In this document: positions 5,963-18,880 of the stretch, piece by piece | How positions within the stretch are numbered: position 1 is the first letter of the stretch | Layout: every line of letters begins with the position of its first letter | Assembly (NCBI GenBank): GCA_020845575.1 | Contig: JADLFL010000002.1 | Span: forward strand, 25,309-89,308 | Direction: 5' to 3' | DNA length: 64,000 bases | DNA from: Acidobacteriota bacterium | GTDB taxonomy: Bacteria > Acidobacteriota > Vicinamibacteria > Vicinamibacterales > Vicinamibacteraceae | Made by a program: the position numbers and the translations under genes | Notes under the pieces: generated by a model | What the model was told of the DNA's origin: nothing | Seen by the model: only the letters and a program-made list of their open reading frames with translations | The model's database searches: none

Positions 5963-7126
5963 GTGCCTCTGCCGCGACGCATCACCGACATCCAGCCGCC
6001 GGTCATCCCCATCCTCGGCGACTGGATTCGCAGCAATCCCGGCACGATCTCGCTCGGGCAGGGGATCGTGTCGTATGGCCCGCCGCCAGACGTGGCGGCG
6101 GCGCTACAGACCTTCGGCGGATCCGTGGCGGACCATCGCTACGGTCCCGTCGAGGGCCAGCCAGACCTCCTCGCGATCCTGCAGGACAAGCTGACGCGCG
6201 AGAACGGCATCCACCTCGATCGGCGGCGCGTGGTCGTGACCGCCGGGGGCAACATGGCGTTCCTCAACGCCGTGCTCGCGATCACCGATCCCGGCGACGA
6301 GGTCATCCTGCCGGTACCGTTCTACTTCAATCACGAGATGGCGCTGACGATGATCGGCTGTCGCGCCGTGCCGGTTCGCACCGACGCGAACTATCAGCTC
6401 GCTCTCGACGCGATTGGGGACGCCATCACCTCGCGTACCCGCGCCATCGTCACCGTCTCGCCGAACAACCCGACGGGCGCCGTCTATCCCGAACACGCGC
6501 TGCGGGCCGTGAATGCCTTGTGCGCGCGGCACGGTCTGTTCCACATCAGCGATGAGGCATACGAGTACTTCACGTTCGGCGACGCGCGGCACTGTTCACC
6601 GGCGTCTGCCGCCGGCAGTCGTGCGCACACGATCGCGCTGTTCTCGCTCTCGAAGGCATATGGCTTCGCGAGCTGGCGCGTCGGGTACATGGTGGTGCCG
6701 GAGGAACTGTTCGACGCCGTCAACAAGGTGCAGGACACGAACCTGATCTGCCCGCCGCTGGTGTGTCAGGCAGGCGCCGCCGCGGCGCTGCGCGTGGGAC
6801 GCGCGTACTGCGTGCCGAAGGTCGCCGACCTCGACGTCGTTCGCAGCGAGGTCCACGCAACGCTGGCAGGCCTCGGTGATCTCGTCGAGGCACCGCCGAC
6901 AGATGGTGCGTTCTACGTGCTGCTGCGCGTCAACACGACGCTCGACGCCTTCACGCTGACGCGGCGGCTGATCGAGCGGCACCGCGTGGCCGTCGTGCCA
7001 GGCAGCGCGTTCGGCCTCACCGACACGTGCGCGCTGCGCATCTCGTTCGGCGCCCTCGATCGCGACACGGTCGCCGCCGGCATGGCGCGCCTGGTCGACG
7101 GCCTCCGCGCGGAGATCGCATCGTGA
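5963..7126 (+). CDS. Class I/II PLP-dependent aminotransferase
   Basis: VVTAGGNMAF, SPNNPTG, SDEAYEYF, SLSKAYGFASWRVG (PLP lysine). Confidence 0.92.
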   Translation: MPLPRRITDIQPPVIPILGDWIRSNPGTISLGQGIVSYGPPPDVAAALQTFGGSVADHRYGPVEGQPDLLAILQDKLTRENGIHLDRRRVVVTAGGNMAFLNAVLAITDPGDEVILPVPFYFNHEMALTMIGCRAVPVRTDANYQLALDAIGDAITSRTRAIVTVSPNNPTGAVYPEHALRAVNALCARHGLFHISDEAYEYFTFGDARHCSPASAAGSRAHTIALFSLSKAYGFASWRVGYMVVPEELFDAVNKVQDTNLICPPLVCQAGAAAALRVGRAYCVPKVADLDVVRSEVHATLAGLGDLVEAPPTDGAFYVLLRVNTTLDAFTLTRRLIERHRVAVVPGSAFGLTDTCALRISFGALDRDTVAAGMARLVDGLRAEIAS

Positions 7127-7738: not shown

Positions 7739-7827
7739 GGAGAGGAGATCGGCGCCGGCCGCCGCCGCTTGAATGACATGCCAGGCAACGGGCAACGGGC
7801 ACCCCGACAACCGGACACCGGTCCGGA

Positions 7828-7852
7828 TGGAGGCCAGGGGTTTCAACCCCTG
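7828..7852 (+). repeat. REP-like palindrome, TGGAGGCCAGGGG family, copy 1
   Basis: TGGAGGCCAGGGGTTTCAACCCCTG; related copies at 34857-34884 and 52682-52708 on the opposite strand. Confidence 0.7.
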
Positions 7853-7925
7853 CGCAGACGGGTACAGGGGCACCCCTTGTGGGTGCCGTTCCGAAGGTCC
7901 ACGACCGTGTGATCTAGACTGCCGC

Positions 7926-9374
7926 ATGCGTCTGTTCCCGATTTTCGCGACGGCCGCCTGTTGTCTGCTGGTCCTGGCGATGCCGGCATCCGCCGGCGCG
8001 CAGGCGCCGGTGCCGCCCGTGCCTTCCGTCGCGCAACTCCAGTGGCAGCGGATGGAGTTCACGGCGTTCGTCCACTTCGGCCCCAACGCCTTCACCGGCG
8101 TCGAGTGGGGCTCGGGGCGCGAGCAGCCCACCGTCTTCAACCCGACAGCGCTCGACGCCCGGCAGTGGGCGCGCACCTTCAAGGCCGCAGGCATGAAGGG
8201 CGTGATCGTGACGGCGAAGCATCACGACGGGTTCTGCCTGTGGCCCACGAAGGAGTCGACGCACACGGTGGCCGCGAGTCCGTGGCGCGACGGCAAGGGC
8301 GACCTGCTCCGCGAGTTGTCCGATGCGGCGCGCGCCGAAGGCCTGAAGTTCGGCGTGTACCTCTCGCCGTGGGATCGCAATCACCCGACATACGGCACGC
8401 CGGAATACAACGACGTCTTCGTGCGCATGCTCGAAGACGTGCTGTCCAACTACGGCGAGATCTTCGAGGTGTGGTTCGACGGCGCCAACGGTGAAGGTCC
8501 CAACGGCAAGCGTCAGGTGTACGATTGGCCGCGCTTCCACGCCGTGGTGCGGCGCCTGCAGCCGAACGCGGTGATCTTCAGCGACGCCGGACCCGACGTC
8601 CGGTGGATCGGCAACGAGCGCGGCGAAGCGCCGCTCACCAACTGGGCGATGCTCGATCGCGATCGCTATCAGCCAGGCACGCCGCTCAGCATGGACCTGC
8701 CAGAGGGGTCGGCGCTCGGGCGGTTCTACGTGCCGGGCGAGTGCGACGTGTCGATTCGCCCGGGCTGGTTCTGGCGCGCGGCGGAGAACACGCGCGTGAA
8801 GTCACCGCGCGCGTTGCTGCGGTTGTACGAGACGTCCGTCGGACGCAACTGCACGCTGCTCCTCAACGTGCCGCCAGACGATCGCGGTCTCATCCACGAC
8901 AACGACGTGAAGGCGCTCGCGGGCATGCGCGCGTTCGTCGATCGCGTGTACGGGTCGTCGCTGGTGCCATCGGGAGCCACGGCGGGGGCCTCGTCTGCGG
9001 AGCGAGGGCATGCGGCGTCGGCGGTGCTCGATGCCGATCTCGACTCGTTCTGGGCGCCGGCCGGATCGACCGAGACAGGTGCGGTGACGGTGGACCTCGG
9101 CACGCCCGTCACCTTCGATCGCGTGCGGCTGCAGGAGTACGTGGCGCAGGGACAGCGCGTCTCGCTGTTCGAGATCGAAGCCTGGCTGAACGGCGCCTGG
9201 ACGCGTATCGCCAACGGCACCACCATCGGCCACACCCGCATCGTCGCCACCGACGTCACGACGACGTCACGCGTGCGGGTGACGATCCATGACGCGCGCG
9301 GCGTACCGCTCATCGCGTCGCTGTCGCTTCACGATTCCACGAAAGCCGCGCCTGCCGCGGCGGAGGCTCACTGA
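7926..9374 (+). CDS. Secreted alpha-L-fucosidase (GH29) with C-terminal F5/8-type (CBM32-like) domain
   Basis: Signal peptide; FVHFG, TAKHHDGFCLW, YLSPWDR, EVWFDGA, ECDVSIRPGWF; C-terminal VDLGTPVTFDRVRLQE; start refined to ATG 7926. Confidence 0.92.
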   Translation: MRLFPIFATAACCLLVLAMPASAGAQAPVPPVPSVAQLQWQRMEFTAFVHFGPNAFTGVEWGSGREQPTVFNPTALDARQWARTFKAAGMKGVIVTAKHHDGFCLWPTKESTHTVAASPWRDGKGDLLRELSDAARAEGLKFGVYLSPWDRNHPTYGTPEYNDVFVRMLEDVLSNYGEIFEVWFDGANGEGPNGKRQVYDWPRFHAVVRRLQPNAVIFSDAGPDVRWIGNERGEAPLTNWAMLDRDRYQPGTPLSMDLPEGSALGRFYVPGECDVSIRPGWFWRAAENTRVKSPRALLRLYETSVGRNCTLLLNVPPDDRGLIHDNDVKALAGMRAFVDRVYGSSLVPSGATAGASSAERGHAASAVLDADLDSFWAPAGSTETGAVTVDLGTPVTFDRVRLQEYVAQGQRVSLFEIEAWLNGAWTRIANGTTIGHTRIVATDVTTTSRVRVTIHDARGVPLIASLSLHDSTKAAPAAAEAH

Positions 9375-10616: not shown

Positions 10617-13298
10617 CTATGGGGGCGTGGCGAGTTCCAGGCGCTGGCGTTTCAGGTAGAGGCCCTTGCGCGTGATGCCGAGGGCTGCGGCGACGGCGAC
10701 CTGGTTGTTGCCGTTGCGTTCCATCGCGCGAGTGATCGCTGCGCGTTCGATGTCGTCGTGAATCTGCTGTAGCGGACGATCGAGCCAGACGCTGCAGTAC
10801 GAACGGTCACCGTGCGTCGGCGGCAGCGTCGGCGTCGACGTGCGGACGTTGGGTGCGAGGTGCGTCACGTCCACCAGTTCATCGTCTTCGCTGAGGGCGA
10901 CGACGCGCTTCAGTTCGTTGGTGAGCTGCCGCACGTTGCCCGGCCATTCGTAAGCAGACAGGCACTCGAGTGCCTTGGGCGTGAGCTGGGGGATCGGCTT
11001 CCCCGCCTGTTTTGCATGCATCGTCAGGAAGTGGTTGACGAGCGTGGGGATCTCCTCGCGCCGCTCGCGGAGCGGCGGGATGGTGAGCGAGACGACGTTG
11101 AGGCGGTAGAAGAGGTCCTCGCGGAAACGACCGGCGCGAACGAGCTCCTCGAGGCGCGCGTTGGTGGCCGCCACGATGCGGACGTCGACGTGCTGGGGCC
11201 GTTCGCCGAGCGGCTGGATCTCGCCACTTTCGAGGAAGCGCAGCAGCTTGGGCTGCAGGTCGGCGTCGAGCTCGCCGATCTCGTCGATGAACAGCGTGCC
11301 GCCCTCGGCCTCGCGGATCAGCCCCTTGTTGTCGGCGACGGCGCCAGTGAACGCGCCCCGCCGGTAGCCAAAGAGCTGCCCCTCCAGCATGTCGCGCGGC
11401 ACGGCCGACACGTTGAACGCGATGAACCGCCGCTGCGACCGCTTCGAAAGCTCATGAACCTCCTGCGCGACGATCTCCTTCCCCGTCCCCGTCTCACCTG
11501 CGATGAGCACGGGCAGATCAGTTGGAGCGACGCGCTTGATCGTTGAAAGTAGTTTCCTCATCTCTGTCGAGATGTAGAGACCCACCTTGCCCTCTGGAGC
11601 GACATCAAGCTCCCAGGAAAGCACACGCTTCTTGGACTCCTGCCCAGATCGCAGGGCCGCGATCGCTGTTCCGATCATGCCGAAGACTTGTGCAATAGTT
11701 TCGCGCGAGGTGGGATCGAGCTTGGGCTGCAGCTCTAACGTGACGGTCTCGTCTCCGACGGCGCCAAACGCAATTGCATAAGGAGAATCCGGCGACAGTG
11801 TTCGCGACTGGATTACGCGTCCGTCAACGATCACCTTCATTCTTCGAAGCAAGTGGATGGTCTCAGATGCGGCGAGCGCTGGCTGCGGAAGAAGCGCGCA
11901 CACGTATGCCAATGATTCGGCGAGTTCGAAATGCAGTCTGTGCCTTCTGGTAGATGGCAGCCCCAACGGCGGCCAGTGGTTGGCGGGCACGGAAGCCCTG
12001 ATTCTCGCTGTCTGCTTTGCGCTACATCGATCGCCGGACGCGAGGAAAATCCGAATAGCCCTTCCGTGCTCACTGTACCAGCGCTTTCGATCCCCTCGAT
12101 CAGCCGCCAATACCGCACGTACGCGAGCCAGCAGACCGACAATTTCGGCACTGGGGTGTTGCAGGCGCTCAACGACATCCACAACGTCGAGGTCGGCGCG
12201 TGCGCTGTTTCCTGTCGCACAAAGCACTTCCGCACAAAGCAGCCTGAGTTTGGCCCAGTTTGCTAGATCACCGCGGTCATCTGCTGCCTGTTGTGCGGCA
12301 GTCAGCAGCTCAATCGCACCCTGCATGTTTCCGGATGCAACGGCAAATCTGCTACGAACCGAGGCCGAGTCAACCAGAAGGATGGTAGTCCCGCTGAGCT
12401 CAGAGACAATCGCGTCGATCTCTCGGACGTGTGGCTCTGCCTCCTGGATACCTCCCGTCTCCAGCGCGACGTTGGCGAGCGTATCAAGGAGCGCTCCACG
12501 CGCTAGCGATACTCTCGGAACAGCATCTAGTGCAGTCGAAGCCAGTGTTCTAGCTTTGTCGAAGTGGCCGCGACGACACTCAAGAAACGCTAGATTGGCT
12601 TGTGCAGCAGCTTGAAGAGATTGAAGCCCATGTACTGAAGCCGTCTCATAAGCGGTGCGAGCCCAACGAGCGGCGTCTACGTTCCGCGCGAGCAGATACT
12701 CTGCACCAGAAAGCGCTAAGCAAACGAACGTCTCGATGGCGCCGTTTGGCTCTGGTTCCAGCAGGGCCAGTGCGGAGAGCAGTTCAGGAACAGCGACGCC
12801 CGGAAGGCTTCGCTGCGCATGAGCCTGCCCAACGCGAGCATGCAGCGACGCCATCAGTTGGCGGTCTCCGCACTTCAGTACGGCGCGTTTGGCTGTTTCG
12901 AAGGCCTGCTGGCTCTCAGCGAGTCCGCGGTGGCTCGTTAGCAGTGTAAAACGCGAGAGCGCCGCGAGAGCAACCTGCTCGTGCTCCTGTGCAGCCTCTC
13001 CTTCCACCAGCACTCGCCCCAGCGTATCGAGTGCGTCTGCTACGCGACCAGATGAGCCGAACAGTTCACCCTTGACGCGCAGAGCAAACACTCGCAACGC
13101 TGCGTCAGGCGAGTCAACGGCATAGGTCCCGAGCTGTGCAGAAGCGGCTGACACAGCGCCAGCCTGTCGCAACAACTCAGCCTCGATGACGTCGCGTGTC
13201 GCATCAGGAAGAGATGCGGCATGCAACATGCGTCGACTACTAGAGGCGTTACCAGAACGGAGGGCACGCCGGAGGGCGGCTGGCAGGTTCAGGGGCAT
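10617..13298 (-). CDS. Sigma54-dependent enhancer-binding protein with a large TPR-like helical N-terminal sensor
   Basis: GETGTGKE (Walker A), [20 protein letters not shown] (Walker B), [20 protein letters not shown]-terminal Fis-type HTH; no REC domain; helical repeats such as [28 protein letters not shown]. Alternative start ATG 13229. Confidence 0.9.
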
Positions 13299-13361: not shown

Positions 13362-14999
13362 TCAGTCGCCCCACACCAAGGTATCGCCCCACACGAGCGT
13401 GTCACCCCATACCAGGGTGTCGCCCCACACGAGCGTGTCACCCCACACCAAGGTATCCCCCCACACGAGCGTGTCACCCCACACCAAGGTATCGCCCCAG
13501 ACGAGCGTGTCGCCCCACACCAAGGTGTCCCCCCACACGAGCGTGTCACCCCATACCAGGGTGTCGCCCCACACGAGCGTGTTCGCGCCGGCTTTCGCGG
13601 CGAAGGTCAGACCACTGCGCTCGATTGTCTCGCCGGCGATGTTTGTCGTTGGCAAATTCTGCAACCCGCGTCGGGAAGCCGACACAGCAGAGACGACGTT
13701 GATAGCGCCGGCGCCGGCGGCGGCGACGCCGGATTCGGCGACGCGCTGCGAGGTGAGCTGGAGCACTGCCTTCACCTGGTGCGGCTTGAGCGACGGGTTG
13801 GCCTGGAGCACCAGCGCCGCGGCACCTGACACCATCGCCGCCGCCATGCTCGTGCCCGACAACCGCAGGTAGAAGCGCTGGCCGGACCCGGTCGAAACCG
13901 CGCCGTCCTTCTGCGCGAGCGTGCTCTGCGCGGCACCCGCCGACACTATGCGGCGGCCCGGCGCCGCGAGGTCGGGCTTCATGAACCCGTCGATCGCCGT
14001 GAGGCCACGCGAACTCCAGTCGGTCACGCGGTCGTCACTGCGCGCCACGGTGCCCATCGTGTCGATCGCGCCCACGGTGATCGCCGACGGCGCGTTGCCC
14101 GGCGAGGTGATGCTGTCGCGCACGCGTGTGCCATCGGGCAGCGTGCCGAGGTTGCCCGCCGACGCCACCACCACGAGCCCCGCGCGACTCGCACGCTCCA
14201 CCGCCTGCACGAGCGGATCGTCGGCCCAGCTCTCCAGCACCGGCTTGCCGAGCGACAGGTTGACCACGCGCAGCTTGTACGCGCGACGGTTCGCGATGGC
14301 CCAGTCGATCGCCGCGATCACGTCGCTCGTCGTGCCGTGTCCCTTCGCGTCGAGCACACGCAGGTTCACCACGTGCGCGCCTGGCGCCACACCGCTGAAG
14401 CGACCCGCACGCGTCGTCACGTTACCCGCCGCGATGCCCGCCACGTGCGTACCGTGGCCGTAGCCGTCGTTCCCGCGCTCACGCACGGAGACGAAATCCA
14501 CGGCCGCCACTACGCGGCCGCGCAGCGATTCGTGCGTCGACGCAATCCCCGAATCGATGATCGCGATGCCAATGCCCGTCCCGTCCACACCCGGCAGGCC
14601 GAAGGCCCCGCGCCACGCCTGGTCGGCACCGAGCGCCTGCACCTCGGTCGCCATGTGCGCTGCCACCGGCGCGTCCTCGGCCACCGCTGGCACGCCCGGG
14701 TCGCTCGCCAGGCGCGACAGGCCGGCCCTGTCCACTCTCAGGACGGCCCCCGTCTCCAGCACCTTCTCGACCACCAGACCATGCCGCGCCGCAAGGTCGC
14801 GGATCTGCGCCGGCGTCCCGGAGACGATCACCCCGCGTGCGGCACCGGCACCCACCTTGTCCACCAGCCCCCTCGACAGGCGCGCGCGATGGCCCTGAGC
14901 ATGCAGAGGCGACGACAGCACCAGCATCAGAAAGGCGATGGACACCCAGACGACGGTGCGCTGGATGGGCGAAGGGAGGGTCGAACGGAGGGAGAACAT
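13362..14999 (-). CDS. Secreted S8 (subtilisin, AprX-like) serine peptidase with a C-terminal (TLVWGD)12 tail
   Basis: Signal peptide ending SSPLHA, prodomain, intact triad IAIIDSG / GHGTHVAG / SGTSMAA, oxyanion SAGN; start refined to ATG 14999. Confidence 0.93.
   Translation of the reverse strand: MFSLRSTLPSPIQRTVVWVSIAFLMLVLSSPLHAQGHRARLSRGLVDKVGAGAARGVIVSGTPAQIRDLAARHGLVVEKVLETGAVLRVDRAGLSRLASDPGVPAVAEDAPVAAHMATEVQALGADQAWRGAFGLPGVDGTGIGIAIIDSGIASTHESLRGRVVAAVDFVSVRERGNDGYGHGTHVAGIAAGNVTTRAGRFSGVAPGAHVVNLRVLDAKGHGTTSDVIAAIDWAIANRRAYKLRVVNLSLGKPVLESWADDPLVQAVERASRAGLVVVASAGNLGTLPDGTRVRDSITSPGNAPSAITVGAIDTMGTVARSDDRVTDWSSRGLTAIDGFMKPDLAAPGRRIVSAGAAQSTLAQKDGAVSTGSGQRFYLRLSGTSMAAAMVSGAAALVLQANPSLKPHQVKAVLQLTSQRVAESGVAAAGAGAINVVSAVSASRRGLQNLPTTNIAGETIERSGLTFAAKAGANTLVWGDTLVWGDTLVWGDTLVWGDTLVWGDTLVWGDTLVWGDTLVWGDTLVWGDTLVWGDTLVWGDTLVWGD
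13365..13580 (-). repeat. 12 x 18-nt coding tandem repeat (TLVWGD)
   Basis: 12 units counted in the DNA; all unit differences are synonymous; ends directly at the TGA stop. Confidence 0.97.
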
Positions 15000-15097: not shown

Positions 15098-15263
15098 TGT
15101 GTGCAGAAATTGCGATCTCGGACACGAGATGCATGAGACGAATGCACCCCTGAAGCGGCGGACTCGTTGTGCCGACACAGGATCAGGGCCCGTCTCGACA
15201 ATTGGAAGTCAACCTCATCATTTGCTTGGAATCACTGTCGAGGCAGATTTTCCGCCCGTTGAT

Positions 15264-15281
15264 CGGCCAAGATCTTGGCCG
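15264..15281. promoter_or_regulatory. Perfect 18-bp palindrome in the divergent protease/ABC intergenic region
   Basis: CGGCCAAGATCTTGGCCG; a second dyad ATCTCG-GACA-CGAGAT lies at 15115-15130. Confidence 0.55.
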
Positions 15282-15307
15282 GTGTAGCCAAGGAGTTGCC
15301 CTCTCCC

Positions 15308-17002
15308 ATGAAGCGTCTTGCCGGCGTCCTCCTGCTTCTCGCCCTCATCGTCGCCGGCCTCGTGTGGCTGCGTACCGCTCCCGCGCGGCAGGCCGACACG
15401 ACGTTCGAACTCGTGGCCACACTCCGCGCCGAACCGCGTACGCTCAACAGGCTGCTCGCCGCCGACCGCGCCGCCCTCGTCGTCAGCCAACTCATCCACG
15501 AGCCGCTGGTCCGCGTGAATCACACGACGCAGGATCTGGAACCCGCCCTGGCCTCGGCATGGACCCTGTCCGACGATGGCCGGCGATTCACGGTGACGCT
15601 GCGACCAGATGCGCACTTCTCCGACGGCTCGCCCGTCACGGCAGGCGATGTGGTGTTCTCGGTGGAGACCGCTGCCGACACGCGCATCGGCAGCGTCGTG
15701 GCCGACAACCTCCTCGTGGATGGTGCTCCTGTGGTGGTGCGGGCGATCGACGCGCACACCGTCGCGATCGAGTACCCCACGCCGTTCGGGCCGGGACTCC
15801 GCCCCCTTCACGGCGTACCGATCCTGCCGCGCGCGCGCTATGAGGGGTTGGTCAGCGACGGCTCTCTCTCGAACGCGTGGACGGCAGACGCCCCGCCGGC
15901 GGGGATGGTGAGCGCCGGGCCGTTCGTCCTCGAACGCCACGAGCCAGGCGTGGCCCTCCACCTCGCACGCAATCCGCACTACTGGCGTCGCGCCGGCGAT
16001 GGCGCGCGGCTGCCGCGCGCCGCACGTCTCCGCTTCGACATCGTCCCGTCGCAGGATGCGGAGATGCTGCGTCTGCGCGACGGCCAGGCGGATGTCGTCA
16101 CCGCCGAGTTGCGCCCCGACGATCTGCCTGAAGCACGCGCGCTCGCCGCACAGGGCCGGCTGCAACTCTTCGAGCTCGGCCCTTCGCTCGACACCGACAT
16201 GCTCTGGTTCAACCTCGGGCCGCACGCACCTGGTGGCGAGAAGCGCGCGTGGCTGAAGGCCCGGGCGCTGCGAGAGGCGATTTCGCATGCCGTCGATCGC
16301 ACGGCGTTCATCAACGCGGTCTACAGGGGCGCAGCGGTGCAGGTGTCGAGCATGATCACGCCCGGCAATCGCGCCTGGCACGCAGATACGCTCGCGCCGC
16401 GACCGTATTCGCTCGACATGGCGGCCACGCTGCTGGACTCGATCGGCGTCCGCGATCGCAACGGCGACGGCATGCGCGAAGACGTCTACAACGCACCGGC
16501 GCGCTTCACGCTGCTCGTGCAGCAGGGCCACACGATTCGCCAGCGTGCTGCACTGGTCCTCCAGGAGTCGCTCTCGAAGGTCGGCCTGCAGGTGGAGATC
16601 GCCAGCCTCGACGCACGCGGATTGCAGGAGCGCCTGCGGCAGGGTACGTACGAGGCGATGTACCACGGCCTGCCCGGATCGGACACGGACCCGTCGGGCC
16701 TGATGGAGTTCTGGCTGTCGTCGGGCGCGTTCCATCTCTGGAATCCCGGACAAGCCACTCCGGCCACGCCGTGGGAGGCCGAGATCGATCGCCTGATGAC
16801 GAGTCAGCTTTCAATTACCGATGTGAACGAGCGCCGTGCACTGGTCCTGCAGGCGCAGCAGGTGCTCGACACGGAGCTGCCGGTAATAGTGTTCGCCGCG
16901 CCGAACGTGACGGTGGCCACGAGCGGACGACTGGAGCACGTGTCGCCAGGGCTGCTGTCGCCGACCGTGCTCTGGAACGCCGCCGCGATCGGCGTGCGGT
17001 GA
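15308..17002 (+). CDS. ABC transporter substrate-binding protein, family 5 (oligopeptide/dipeptide/nickel)
   Basis: EPRTLNRL, LIHEPLV, LRPDAHFSDGSPVTAGDVVFS, SAGPFVL, LARNPHYW, LREAISHAVDR; start refined to ATG 15308. Confidence 0.9.
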   Translation: MKRLAGVLLLLALIVAGLVWLRTAPARQADTTFELVATLRAEPRTLNRLLAADRAALVVSQLIHEPLVRVNHTTQDLEPALASAWTLSDDGRRFTVTLRPDAHFSDGSPVTAGDVVFSVETAADTRIGSVVADNLLVDGAPVVVRAIDAHTVAIEYPTPFGPGLRPLHGVPILPRARYEGLVSDGSLSNAWTADAPPAGMVSAGPFVLERHEPGVALHLARNPHYWRRAGDGARLPRAARLRFDIVPSQDAEMLRLRDGQADVVTAELRPDDLPEARALAAQGRLQLFELGPSLDTDMLWFNLGPHAPGGEKRAWLKARALREAISHAVDRTAFINAVYRGAAVQVSSMITPGNRAWHADTLAPRPYSLDMAATLLDSIGVRDRNGDGMREDVYNAPARFTLLVQQGHTIRQRAALVLQESLSKVGLQVEIASLDARGLQERLRQGTYEAMYHGLPGSDTDPSGLMEFWLSSGAFHLWNPGQATPATPWEAEIDRLMTSQLSITDVNERRALVLQAQQVLDTELPVIVFAAPNVTVATSGRLEHVSPGLLSPTVLWNAAAIGVR

Positions 17003-17006
17003 CCTG

Positions 17007-17885
17007 ATGCGCCGCGCGATCGCCGGACGACTCGCCTTCGCGCTCGCGCTCGTGGCGCTCGCGTTCGTGGGTGCGTTCGTGCTCACGGCGCTGGCGCCAG
17101 GCGATGCGATCGACGTCGGGCTGCGATCGACGCAATCTGTCGATGCCGAGCGCGTCCGCCTCGGACTCGACAGGCCCGTCCTCACGCGACTCGCGACGCG
17201 GATCGCGCGGCTGGCTGTGCTCGACTTCGGCCGATCCATCCGCTACGACCAGCCCGTGCTCACGCTCGTCCTCCAGCGGACCGCCACGACGATGCAGACG
17301 GGGGCGGTGGCGCTGGTGCTGGCACTCGTGATCGGGATTCCCGCGGGTGTGGCCAGCAGTCGCGCACGACGGCCCGCCGTGCGTCGTGCGATCGCGGCGA
17401 TCTCGATCGCGCTGCTCTCCATCCCTGCGCTCGTCGTCGCGCTCGTGCTCGCCGTCGTGGCGTCGAGCATCGGACTCACGTCGTGGATGGTGATGACGAT
17501 CGCGCTGGCGCTGCCGGCGGCGGCACTCATCGAACGCCTGCAGTCGCGCGCGATGGATGCCGTGCAGGTCGAGACATGCCTGCGCGCCGCACGCGCACGC
17601 GGCGTGCGGGAAGCGGCCATCACGTGGCGGCACGCGTGGCCGCTGTCGCTGTCTGCCGTGCTCGGCGTGACGGGCATCATCGCCGGACACCTGTTGAGTG
17701 GAGCGCTCGCGATCGAGCTGGTCACGGCCAGAAGCGGACTCGGCCTGCTGACGTACGAAGCGCTGATGGCGCGCGATGTGGAGCTCGCGGCCGGTTGCGC
17801 CGCGGCCGCTGCGCTCATCGTCGGACTCGCGACGCTCGCGGCCGACGTCGTGCAGCTCTGGGTCGACCCGCGGAGCGCCGCGTGA
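17007..17885 (+). CDS. ABC peptide transporter permease, DppB/OppB-like
   Basis: LAPGDA, RLGLDRP, DFGRSIRY, EAA-like loop ARARGV. Confidence 0.85.
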   Translation: MRRAIAGRLAFALALVALAFVGAFVLTALAPGDAIDVGLRSTQSVDAERVRLGLDRPVLTRLATRIARLAVLDFGRSIRYDQPVLTLVLQRTATTMQTGAVALVLALVIGIPAGVASSRARRPAVRRAIAAISIALLSIPALVVALVLAVVASSIGLTSWMVMTIALALPAAALIERLQSRAMDAVQVETCLRAARARGVREAAITWRHAWPLSLSAVLGVTGIIAGHLLSGALAIELVTARSGLGLLTYEALMARDVELAAGCAAAAALIVGLATLAADVVQLWVDPRSAA

Positions 17886-18880
17886 TCACCGTGCGGCGAT
17901 GCGGCGTCGCGCTGCTCGCGATCGTGTGCACGTGTGCGCTAGCGGCGCCGTGGCTGTCGACGGGCGATGTCGCGACTCAGTATCCCGACTACGCCCTCGC
18001 GGGGCCGTCGCTCGCGCGGCGCGACATGGTCGAGCGCCTGCCGCCCACGTATCGCGCGCGCGACGAGCGCCTGCCGCTGGAGTGGTTCGCCGGACATCTC
18101 GTGCGCAGCGCCGATCCGCACGAACCGTTGCTGCCGCTCGGCAGCGACACGCTCGGGCGCGATCAATGGACGCGCCTGCTCTATGGCGCGCGGTTGTCGC
18201 TGGGACTGGCGGGCGTGGCGCTCGTCGCCTCCGTCGCGATCGGCACGCTGGTGGGGCTCGTCGCTGGACGACGAGCCGGATGGACCGACAGCGCGCTGAT
18301 GCGCCTCGCGGACCTGTTCATCGCGTGGCCGGCGCTGTACGTCGTGCTCGTGCTGCGCGCGGCGCTGCCACTCACGCTGCCGTTCGGCACGCTGTTCCTC
18401 ATGATGGCCGCGGTGCTCACGCTCGCGGGCTGGGCGATCGTCGCGCGCGCGGTGCGCGCGGTGACCGCATCGGAGCGCAGCCGCGAGTCGGTACTGGCCG
18501 CGGAAGCCGCCGGCGCGTCGCCCGCCTGGATCATCAGGCGTCACCTGTTGCCGGCGAGCGTGCCCGTGATCGTGACGCAGGCGCTGCTGCTGGTGCCGAC
18601 GTTCATCCTCGCCGAAGCCACGCTCTCGTTCGTCGGCCTCGGCTTCGCGGAACCGGCACCGTCATGGGGCACGATGCTGCGCGAGGCCAGCAATCCGTTC
18701 ACGCTGCGCCACGCGCCATGGCTGCTCGCACCGGCCGGTGCGATCGCGCTCGTGACGCTGGCGGTGAATCTCATCTCCGGCAACCGGCAACGGGCAACCG
18801 GCAACCGGACATCGAACGGGTTGCCCCCCGTTCGCTCCGTCTCGGGTTCGGATACACGACCATCTGGTTTCCGTCGCTAG
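17882..18880 (+). CDS. ABC peptide transporter permease, DppC/OppC-like
   Basis: LGSDTLGRDQWTRLLYGARLSL, AAEAAGAS, ILAEATLSFVGLG, PSWGTML; GTG 17882 overlaps the upstream stop. Confidence 0.87.
   Translation: MITVRRCGVALLAIVCTCALAAPWLSTGDVATQYPDYALAGPSLARRDMVERLPPTYRARDERLPLEWFAGHLVRSADPHEPLLPLGSDTLGRDQWTRLLYGARLSLGLAGVALVASVAIGTLVGLVAGRRAGWTDSALMRLADLFIAWPALYVVLVLRAALPLTLPFGTLFLMMAAVLTLAGWAIVARAVRAVTASERSRESVLAAEAAGASPAWIIRRHLLPASVPVIVTQALLLVPTFILAEATLSFVGLGFAEPAPSWGTMLREASNPFTLRHAPWLLAPAGAIALVTLAVNLISGNRQRATGNRTSNGLPPVRSVSGSDTRPSGFRR

What the first reader, a model, noticed from the sequence alone, without database searches (positions are those of the whole stretch)
13365..13580. (TLVWGD)12 tail: protein-identical but DNA-diversified repeats with a strict two-unit rhythm
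All 12 units encode exactly TLVWGD, yet codons vary at synonymous positions only. Units strictly alternate ACG-CTC with ACC-(T/C)TG, giving a 36-nt period. The 36-mers at 13401-13436 and 13545-13580 are identical (144-nt spacing). This indicates purifying selection on the exact peptide and expansion by dimer-unit duplication. The protein stops at the last Asp. Possible roles are a released peptide, a beta-solenoid/amyloid-like Trp ladder, a surface or polymer anchor, or an autoinhibitory tail.
Basis: seen in the sequence. Interest (0 to 1): 0.72.

Follow-up and report, generated by a model that had tools for sequence, protein, structure and literature searches.

The report
Tryptophan hexapeptide tail on acidobacterial protease
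A secreted subtilisin-type protease of a soil Acidobacterium ends in twelve identical Thr-Leu-Val-Trp-Gly-Asp units that selection keeps identical; the tail belongs to a widespread repeat family that no database or paper searched names, and whose fold and function are still unknown.

Summary
The minus-strand gene 13362-14999 encodes a Sec-exported S8 subtilase ending in 12 exact TLVWGD units followed directly by the stop. All DNA differences between units are synonymous, and the units follow a strict 36-nt two-unit rhythm.

It is not a one-off. 297 of 328 related S8 proteases, mostly Acidobacteriota, carry C-terminal [DN]-[NTS]-hydrophobic-hydrophobic-W-G-[NSD] arrays, most often with period 6. 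Same-genus orthologues keep TLVWGD with 10-17 copies. One sister pair has SLVWGD throughout, reached by two different codon routes in the odd and even units. This argues that uniformity of the units is itself selected.

No Pfam or NCBIfam model and no paper found covers the tail. Two AlphaFold2 runs left the arrays unfolded (pLDDT 30-48).

My best reading is a beta-repeat Trp-ladder module with YdcK-like hexapeptide periodicity (confidence 0.4). The main rival is a multi-copy precursor of a hexapeptide signal (0.3). The rival draws on conserved synteny with a peptide importer and a TPR sigma-54 activator, and, in relatives only, a membrane HD-GYP sensor and 8-10-codon mini-genes ending in the same motif.

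This scan has reported the family before on other DNA.

The parts
13365..13580 (-). Array of 12 x TLVWGD (residues 474-545 of P0122), made of six 36-nt dimers
13362..13364 (-). TGA stop directly after the last unit
   Evidence: Orthologues end at the same unit boundary but with TGA, TAG or TAA
13581..13652 (-). Short beta-strand linker (residues 450-473) between the catalytic domain and the array. AlphaFold2 pairs strand 464-469 with 472-477, which includes the first TLVW
   Evidence: pLDDT falls from 84 to 50 here
13725..14582 (-). Peptidase_S8 catalytic domain (P0122 residues 140-425), with Asp149, His182, Asn283 and Ser384 invariant in a 101-sequence alignment
14655..14897 (-). N-terminal propeptide-like beta-alpha-beta region (about residues 35-115)
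   Evidence: secondary structure, and fold match to pro-Tk-SP 3afg for the relative's model. The boundaries are inferred
14898..14999 (-). Probable Sec signal peptide (residues 1-34, hydrophobic core, ...LHA then QG) and start codon ATG at 14999 with a GGAG ribosome-binding site
   Evidence: The cleavage site is inferred and no signal-peptide predictor was run
10617..13298 (-). Co-oriented sigma-54 activator: a 560-aa helical TPR-like sensor, an AAA+ domain and an HTH_8 domain, with no receiver domain. It starts 63 nt after the protease stop and no terminator was found between the two genes
   Evidence: Synteny is conserved in relatives
15275..18880 (+). Divergent peptide-type ABC importer genes: SBP_bac_5 binding protein (15275-17002) and two BPD_transp_1 permeases
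   Evidence: The same divergent arrangement occurs in L002, L003, L005, L006, L007, L029, L037 and L082

Best explanation
The tail is a non-catalytic C-terminal repeat module of an exported S8 subtilase. Each hexapeptide probably contributes one short beta-strand (T-L-V-W) and one tight Gly-Asp turn. The units would stack into a regular, uncapped beta-structure of solenoid or strand-stack type that displays ladders of Trp, Leu and Asp. This rod would act as a binding, retention or self-association element for the protease in the envelope or on a polymer. Because stacked units form ladders, a substitution in one unit is selected against unless every unit carries it. This, together with array turnover in 36-nt phase, keeps all units identical at the protein level while synonymous sites drift. 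Shown here: the anatomy, the selection, the family-wide motif, the concerted evolution and the gene context. Inferred: the beta-stack fold and the binding or retention role.
For: (1) The family motif is [DN]-[NTS]-[ILV]-[VIL]-W-G-[NSD], with Gly after Trp in 276 of 297 proteins. This is the pattern of a strand followed by a Gly-dependent turn. (2) A tail-only phmmer search of 1.84 billion representatives found 1916 hits. They fall into other S8 tails and classical beta-solenoid hexapeptide proteins of pattern [VI]-x-G-[DN]-[AT]-x, with E-values down to 1e-29. About 89 of the best 148 are of this kind, and five of the six I scanned with Pfam pass the PF18836 YdcK beta-solenoid cut-off (the sixth, P0127, scores 15.3 bits, below it). 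In the register V-W-G-D-T-L the window unit fits the same pattern. (3) Many homologues have non-identical units, 12-residue periods in which a Trp unit alternates with a Trp-less x-T-V-x-[GA]-[DN] unit, conserved insertions and conserved C-terminal caps. These are features of a folded repeat domain. (4) Trp-Trp spacings are mostly even (6, 8, 10 and 12 in 259 of 297 proteins), as expected if in/out strand alternation must be kept. (5) AlphaFold2 models the first TLVW as a strand paired with the preceding strand. In a relative it models ETTI-EG-ETFAW-SQ-NIVW-GN-VIGS as successive short strands with 2-residue turns at pLDDT 70-83. (6) 8-residue-period homologues weakly match the grass antifreeze beta-roll family PF21300. 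(7) The all-Thr to all-Ser switch in both unit classes fits a requirement for uniform ladders if odd and even units share a ladder.
Against: Two AlphaFold2 runs, with 101- and 68-sequence alignments, left the pure arrays at pLDDT 30-48 with no secondary structure. No Pfam repeat model, including PF18836 and Hexapep, matches the tail even at E <= 10. The PDB sequence search gave only E = 0.72. The array has no C-terminal cap, and with Trp and Leu pointing outwards a monomeric solenoid would be very hydrophobic. Perfect unit identity is unusual for structural solenoids. The conserved signalling and import neighbourhood, and the free-standing mini-genes in relatives, are not explained by a purely structural role. 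The phmmer similarity between periodic sequences may reflect composition and period rather than homology.
Confidence: 0.4

Rival explanations
1. Polyprotein precursor of a hexapeptide signal. After Sec export the protease, or another protease, cuts its own tail into about 11-12 identical hexapeptides, for example after Trp. The adjacent family-5 binding protein and permeases re-import them. The TPR-like sensor of the adjacent sigma-54 activator binds them and tunes expression. This would be an RRNPP-like circuit in a diderm phylum, with the pro-peptide fused to its processing enzyme.
For: Unit identity is exact and held by selection, and both unit classes switched Thr to Ser by different codon routes, with no mixed arrays among 10 genus members. 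Copy number varies from 10 to 17 while the peptide is kept. In this clade the tail ends exactly at a unit boundary. The array is modelled as disordered. Synteny of the S8 gene with SBP_bac_5 plus permeases and a receiver-less TPR sigma-54 activator is conserved from Vicinamibacterales to Solibacteraceae. In relatives a MASE9-like HD-GYP-GAF membrane protein lies within 5 kb in 27 of 81 loci. Nine 8-10-codon mini-genes with ribosome-binding sites, ending in IIVW[ST], IIWGE or VVWG, sit just after the S8 stop in 8 loci, against about 0.25 expected by chance. As a precedent, tandemly duplicated Phr pro-peptides are cut by extracellular proteases, imported by Opp and bound by TPR receptors (PMC11343458).
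Against: There is no evidence of cleavage. The window and its genus lack both the HD-GYP gene and any mini-gene. A protease next to a peptide importer is also what a purely nutritional operon looks like. The mini-genes have no export signal and match the array unit only in about half of the loci. Many homologous tails have degenerate units, conserved insertions and caps, and a preference for even spacing, all of which point to a folded domain. The TPR assignment of the sensor is below the Pfam cut-off (20.5 against 30.1 bits). No canonical -24/-12 box was found on the S8 strand upstream.
Confidence: 0.3
2. C-terminal pro-region. The tail helps export, folding or latency (an intramolecular chaperone, an autoinhibitor occupying the substrate cleft, or an aid to outer-membrane passage) and is removed and degraded on maturation, without any signalling role.
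For: The closest solved relative by sequence is the pro-subtilase Tk-SP (3afg, E 1.7e-55), and it is also the top fold match of the relative's model. From my own knowledge of the Tk-SP and aqualysin literature, not checked here, such enzymes auto-remove C-terminal extensions. Trp-Gly with hydrophobic P2-P4 residues is a plausible subtilase site (inference). The tail is modelled as unstructured.
Against: A disposable pro-region would not need 12 identical units, exact identity held by selection, or 10-17 copies. The Tk-SP match covers only residues 99-439 and not the tail. No test of cleavage was possible.
Confidence: 0.15
3. A recent neutral slippage expansion, or an assembly artefact, with no function.
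For: Tandem 18-nt units can expand by slippage. Copy number differs between species. Several assemblies break or frameshift inside the array.
Against: At least 8 differences are all synonymous. The unit-by-unit order is retained against a 98%-identical orthologue, with 7 of 7 array differences synonymous at the same nucleotide divergence as the rest of the gene. The dimer rhythm is shared across the genus. The motif is conserved in 91% of relatives. The units are diverse enough at the DNA level to assemble unambiguously, since the longest self-match is 50 nt.
Confidence: 0.03

Closest known systems
YdcK-type beta-solenoid hexapeptide repeat (Pfam PF18836), common in short phage-like proteins, and the wider left-handed beta-helix hexapeptide class
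   Same: Both have period 6 and the pattern [VI]-aromatic-G-[DN]-[AT]-x, which in the window reads V-W-G-D-T-L. They find each other by phmmer at E down to 1e-29.
   Different: The PF18836, Hexapep and Bactofilin models do not match the tail even at E <= 10. Trp is invariant here but only one of several aromatic residues there. Here the array is the uncapped extreme C-terminus of a secreted protease, and all units are identical. No confident model shows the fold.
RTX nonapeptide beta-roll at the C-terminus of serralysin-type secreted proteases
   Same: Both are acidic Gly-Asp-containing tandem repeats at the C-terminus of a secreted protease, with two repeats per structural turn. Both could plausibly be disordered until they bind cations outside the cell.
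   Different: The unit differs (6 against 9 residues, with no GGxGxD). The protease class differs (S8 against M10). This protein has a Sec signal peptide, and no type I secretion genes were seen in the cluster. Ca2+ binding was not tested.
Tk-SP of Thermococcus kodakarensis (PDB 3afg, 9ues), a pro-subtilase with a non-catalytic C-terminal domain
   Same: It is the best solved relative of the catalytic and propeptide parts (E 1.7e-55) and the top fold match of the relative's model. Both have an S8 core followed by a C-terminal extension.
   Different: The Tk-SP extension is a beta-jelly-roll domain and not a Trp hexapeptide array. The sequence match stops at residue 439.
RRNPP(A) peptide signalling of Bacillota (Rap/Phr and relatives), including tandemly duplicated pheromone pro-peptides (PMC11343458)
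   Same: The parts list matches: an exported precursor with repeated short peptides, subtilisin-type extracellular proteases, an oligopeptide permease and a cytoplasmic TPR-type receptor. Here all of them lie in one cluster.
   Different: The phylum is different and diderm. The putative precursor is fused to the protease. The receptor would be a sigma-54 activator. Processing, import and binding are all untested, and the TPR match is below the cut-off.

Membership tests
Peptidase S8 / subtilase (Pfam PF00082) | HMM match above the gathering score | tested here: met
   187.9 bits against a cut-off of 21.8, E 3.2e-55
Peptidase S8 / subtilase (Pfam PF00082) | Asp-His-Ser catalytic triad plus oxyanion Asn | tested here: met
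   D149, H182, S384 and N283 are invariant in the 101-sequence alignment A1. The core is modelled at pLDDT above 90
YdcK beta-solenoid repeat (PF18836) | HMM match at or above the gathering score (30 bits) | tested here: not met
   No Pfam family matched the tail alone or the tail plus linker at E <= 10, and none matched in the whole protein at E <= 1
YdcK beta-solenoid repeat (PF18836) | Hexapeptide pattern [VI]-x-G-[DN]-[AT]-x in tandem | tested here: met
   The register V-W-G-D-T-L is read directly from the sequence. There are mutual phmmer hits with proteins that pass PF18836
YdcK beta-solenoid repeat (PF18836) | Left-handed beta-helix fold | tested here: inconclusive
   AlphaFold2 gave pLDDT of about 35 for the array and 30-48 in a relative
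Bacterial transferase hexapeptide (Hexapep, left-handed beta-helix) | Pattern [LIV]-[GAED]-x2-[STAV]-x and an HMM match | tested here: not met
   Position i+1 is Trp and not G/A/E/D. There is no HMM hit. Only a hexapeptide transferase at E 0.72 appeared in the PDB search. The pattern itself is recalled from PROSITE
RTX beta-roll (PF00353) | GGxGxDxUx nonapeptides, with type I secretion | tested here: not met
   The unit has 6 residues and no GGxG. There is no Pfam hit. A Sec-type N-terminus is present
Grass antifreeze beta-roll (PF21300 LbR_Ice_bind) | HMM match above 30 bits | tested here: not met
   There is no hit for this tail. Only 8-residue-period homologues reach 29-35 bits
RRNPP-type peptide signalling circuit | Exported precursor carrying the mature peptide | tested here: inconclusive
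   A signal-peptide-like N-terminus and a repeated C-terminal peptide are present. Release of the peptide is not shown
RRNPP-type peptide signalling circuit | Oligopeptide permease for re-import | tested here: inconclusive
   SBP_bac_5 and two permeases are adjacent and syntenic. No ATPase gene was seen in the cluster, and the substrate is unknown
RRNPP-type peptide signalling circuit | Cytoplasmic TPR receptor that binds the peptide | tested here: inconclusive
   TPR_12 scores 20.5 bits against a cut-off of 30.1 in the activator's 560-aa sensor. Binding cannot be tested here
RRNPP-type peptide signalling circuit | Proteolytic maturation of the precursor outside the cell | not testable with these tools
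   This needs mass spectrometry of the secreted material

The most novel reading that the evidence does not exclude
The tail is a 12-copy polyprotein of a hexapeptide signal fused to its own processing protease. Its products are re-imported by the divergent family-5 ABC system and read by the TPR-like sensor of the adjacent sigma-54 activator. In relatives they would also be read by a membrane MASE9-type HD-GYP c-di-GMP phosphodiesterase, with 8-10-codon mini-genes supplying the same motif from inside the cell. This would be an RRNPP-like peptide communication system in Acidobacteriota, a phylum in which I know of no described peptide signalling (my own knowledge, not searched for here).
Probability: 0.3. 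Interest if true: 0.9.

Novelty: new variant of a known kind. Interest (0 to 1): 0.62.

Why it matters
Secreted subtilases are among the main extracellular proteases of Acidobacteriota, which are abundant but poorly cultured soil bacteria. Nine in ten of the sampled relatives of this enzyme carry a Trp-Gly repeat tail that no domain database names and no paper I could find describes, so a major feature of these enzymes is uncharacterised.

If the tail is a Trp-ladder beta-stack, it is a new minimal repeat architecture. It could explain how these proteases are retained on cells or substrates.

If it is a multi-copy peptide precursor, it opens peptide signalling in a phylum where I know of none. 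It would also give a candidate ligand for the orphan MASE9 sensor domain.

The locus is also a clean natural example of selection for uniformity among tandem repeat units.

Tried and rejected
- **Structure prediction.** AlphaFold2 was run on the whole protein with a 101-sequence alignment and on a relative with an irregular, better-anchored tail with 68 sequences. Both left the arrays at low confidence, so no fold search of the tail was meaningful. The fold search of the second model returned only subtilases.
- **Family and structure look-ups for the tail.** Pfam on the tail alone at E <= 10 gave nothing. NCBIfam gave only S8 families, all below their cut-offs. The PDB sequence search gave only a hexapeptide transferase at E 0.72.
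- **Literature.** Searches for the motif strings, for subtilase plus repeat plus Trp, and for Acidobacteria found nothing relevant.
- **A free-standing copy of the motif or a mini-gene.** None was found in the 64-kb window, in the orthologous locus L082, or next to the genome's only MASE9 gene.
- **A canonical sigma-54 -24/-12 box upstream on the S8 strand.** None was found in the window or in 11 related loci.
- **A second tailed paralogue in the same genome.** None was found.
- **A universal two-unit rhythm.** This is rejected as a family-wide rule. Lag-2 DNA identity is highest in only 11 of 21 period-6 arrays.
- **A tail that always ends at a unit boundary.** This holds only for this clade, 9 of 61 complete tails.
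- **A hypermutable array.** This is rejected. Against the 98% orthologue the array diverges at 6.7%, against 5.9% for the rest of the gene.
Full report
**Observation.** The reverse complement of window 13365-13580 is 12 head-to-tail 18-nt units, each encoding TLVWGD. A TGA stop follows the last Asp directly. Odd units begin ACG CTC and even units begin ACC YTG, without exception. Tandem Repeats Finder therefore scores a 36-nt period higher than the 18-nt one (352 against 240). Dimers 1 and 5 are identical, and the exact self-match at offset 144 runs for 50 nt. Six of 18 columns vary, and all are synonymous positions. At least eight substitutions are needed. Only 24% of single-base changes in these codons (31% of transitions) are synonymous, so all eight being silent has a neutral probability of about 1e-5 to 1e-4.

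**The protein.** The array is the C-terminus of a minus-strand gene with a Peptidase_S8 domain (E 3e-55). The longest ORF starts at 15134. The ATG at 14999 has a GGAG 8 nt upstream and opens a typical signal peptide, so I take the product to be the 545-residue P0122.
- AlphaFold2 with 101 homologues models an N-terminal propeptide-like unit, the catalytic core and a short C-terminal strand region at pLDDT above 90.
- Asp149, His182, Asn283 and Ser384 are invariant.
- The nearest solved relative is the pro-subtilase Tk-SP (3afg, E 1.7e-55), but that match ends at residue 439.
- The genome is a 4.57-Mb, 96%-complete MAG and has no second copy.

**The tail is a family trait.**
- Nearly all full-length proteins among the 120 best homologues (41-77% identity, soil metagenomes) end in arrays built around hydrophobic-hydrophobic-W-G.
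- A scan of one genome per species found 576 relatives. The best 80 are mostly Acidobacteriota (Vicinamibacterales, Terriglobia, Solibacteraceae, Blastocatellia), with a few from other phyla.
- Over 328 sampled relatives, 297 have at least four units.
- The per-protein consensus is [DN]-[NTS]-[ILV]-[VIL]-W-G-[NSD], with Gly after Trp in 276 of 297.
- The commonest Trp-Trp spacing is 6 (150 proteins), followed by 12, 8 and 10. Even spacings dominate.
- A tail-only search of 1.84 billion representatives gave 1916 hits.
- No Pfam or NCBIfam model covers the tail, even at E <= 10. No paper turned up for the motif strings.
- This scan has flagged the same family several times on other DNA.

**Evolution within the genus.** Ten same-genus orthologues (75-98% identity) were recovered.
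- Eight have TLVWGD. Where the assembly spans the array, copy numbers are 10, 12, 13, 16 and 17.
- All complete arrays end at the same unit boundary, but with TGA, TAG or TAA.
- The alternation of CTC and YTG leucine codons is shared by six species. The 36-nt dimer is therefore ancestral in the genus and not a recent event in the window. Two species have homogenised it.
- A sister pair (support 94/94) has SLVWGD in all 15 units, with serine codons alternating AGC and TCN.
- Each of those codons is one step from the ACC-CTC and ACG-YTG unit classes seen in another congener. Thr and Ser were therefore exchanged at least twice independently, once per unit class. No mixed array is seen. This is my strongest evidence that uniformity of the units is itself under selection.
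- Against the 98%-identical orthologue the array keeps its unit order. It differs at 7 of 105 bases, all silent, which is the same divergence as the rest of the gene. It is therefore not hypermutable.
- Across 35 homologous arrays I counted 200 synonymous against 105 non-synonymous codon types, where neutrality expects about 24:76.
- The two-unit rhythm recurs elsewhere, including at the protein level (for example TIIWGN/TMVWGS and NIVWGE/NLVWGE). It is the best lag in only 11 of 21 arrays.

**What the tail is physically.**
- In favour of a beta-repeat: the motif reads as a four-residue strand plus a Gly-dependent turn.
- In the register V-W-G-D-T-L it matches the [VI]-x-G-[DN]-[AT]-x hexapeptides of YdcK-type beta-solenoid proteins. 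About 89 of the best 148 tail-only hits are of this kind, and five of the six I scanned pass PF18836.
- Many homologues have degenerate units, Trp-less alternate units that keep the Val and the turn, conserved insertions and C-terminal caps.
- Eight-residue variants touch the antifreeze beta-roll model.
- AlphaFold2 pairs the first TLVW with the preceding strand. In a relative it draws successive short strands with two-residue turns at pLDDT 70-83.
- Against: both predictions leave the pure arrays at pLDDT 30-48. No repeat HMM or solved structure matches. The array is uncapped.
- I therefore treat the beta-stack as inferred and cannot choose between a three-sided helix, a two-sided roll and a hairpin meander.

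**Gene context.** The protease is followed 63 nt later by a sigma-54 activator, with no terminator found between them. The activator has a 560-residue TPR-like sensor and no receiver domain. The protease faces a divergent SBP_bac_5 gene and two permease genes.
- This arrangement is conserved in the closest relatives and as far as Solibacteraceae.
- In those more distant relatives a membrane protein (MASE9-like N-terminus, HD-GYP, GAF) lies between the protease and the activator. A homologue is within 5 kb of the protease in 27 of 81 loci.
- The MASE9 domain was proposed to bind its ligand within the membrane (bioRxiv 10.1101/2021.11.05.467447).
- In eight loci, nine mini-genes of 8-10 codons sit just after the protease stop. 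Each has an ATG and a purine-rich ribosome-binding site and ends in IIVW[ST], IIWGE or VVWG. About 0.25 would be expected by chance.
- The window and its genus lack both the HD-GYP gene and the mini-gene. This locus is a reduced version of the cassette.

**Mechanism.** I commit, at 0.4, to a stacked beta-repeat Trp-ladder module that serves binding, retention or self-association. Ladder uniformity would explain the selection for identical units.

The main rival, at 0.3, is a multi-copy precursor of a hexapeptide that is released, imported and sensed. It is modelled on Rap/Phr-type systems, in which tandemly duplicated pro-peptides are cut by extracellular proteases, imported by Opp and bound by TPR receptors (PMC11343458). 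It explains the exact identity, the variable copy number, the context and the mini-genes. It has no direct support and fits the degenerate, capped tails of other clades poorly.

A disposable C-terminal pro-region (0.15) and neutral slippage (0.03) are less likely.

**Limits.** No cleavage, binding or localisation data exist. The signal peptide and domain borders are inferred. Relatives are not independent samples. Several long-read assemblies carry frameshifts in the array, and several short-read contigs end inside it.

Noticed in passing
L002:6911-6943 and 7013-7042; L005:6757-6783; L006:6914-6946; L007:6884-6916; L067:6808-6837; L103:3156-3185; L107:3262-3288; L097 (minus strand, about 110 nt after the S8 stop): Nine mini-genes of 8-10 codons lie directly downstream of the tailed S8 gene in eight related loci. 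Each has an ATG and a GGAG-like ribosome-binding site and ends in IIVWS, IIVWT(D), IIWGE or VVWG. About 0.25 would be expected by chance. The residues after Trp match the locus's own array unit in about half of the loci. No such mini-gene exists in the window.
   Followed up: partly
L007:6973-8922, L002:7101-9038 and homologues in 27 of 81 loci; own genome G000:C44 (L083): A membrane protein with a MASE9-like N-terminus, an HD-GYP (HD_5) domain and a GAF domain sits next to tailed S8 genes in many Acidobacteriota, usually between the protease and the sigma-54 activator. In the window's genus it is missing from the cluster. The genome's only MASE9 hit lies on another contig.
   Followed up: partly
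L086 and L087 (same-genus genomes G007 and G006): All 15 units are SLVWGD, with Ser codons alternating between the AGC and TCN families. These families cannot interconvert by silent single steps, so this is a footprint of two separate Thr/Ser replacements in the two unit classes.
   Followed up: yes
L082/L093, L088, L091 (long-read MAGs); L084, L089, L092 (short-read MAGs): Long-read assemblies show 1-2-nt indels inside the array that break the frame. One result is that the database protein P0002 ends in out-of-frame residues. Short-read contigs often end inside the array. Tails of this family are therefore under-called in protein databases.
   Followed up: partly
window 11619-13298 (minus strand): The activator's 560-residue sensor is 67% identical to its orthologue in L082. 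It shows only a faint collinear similarity (25% over 134 residues, E 0.004) to the sensors of the syntenic activators in L007 and L002, whereas the AAA+ parts are 47-57% identical. The sensor evolves much faster than the rest of the protein.
   Followed up: partly
PDB 8jmw (hit): An S8 peptidase, Vpr, has been solved in a fibril form. This may be relevant if the Trp tails mediate self-assembly. I did not read the entry or any paper on it.
   Followed up: no
L078, L061, L064, L073, L081: S8 proteases of other phyla (Chloroflexota, Saccharimonadales, Gammaproteobacteria) carry related Trp repeats with other units and periods: TSSWS, DITWE, DGYLWS, DGNLWA and VNWGS.
   Followed up: no
window 7773-9374 and L082:11759-13264: An alpha-L-fucosidase with an F5/8 type C domain flanks the cluster both in the window and in the orthologous locus.
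   Followed up: no
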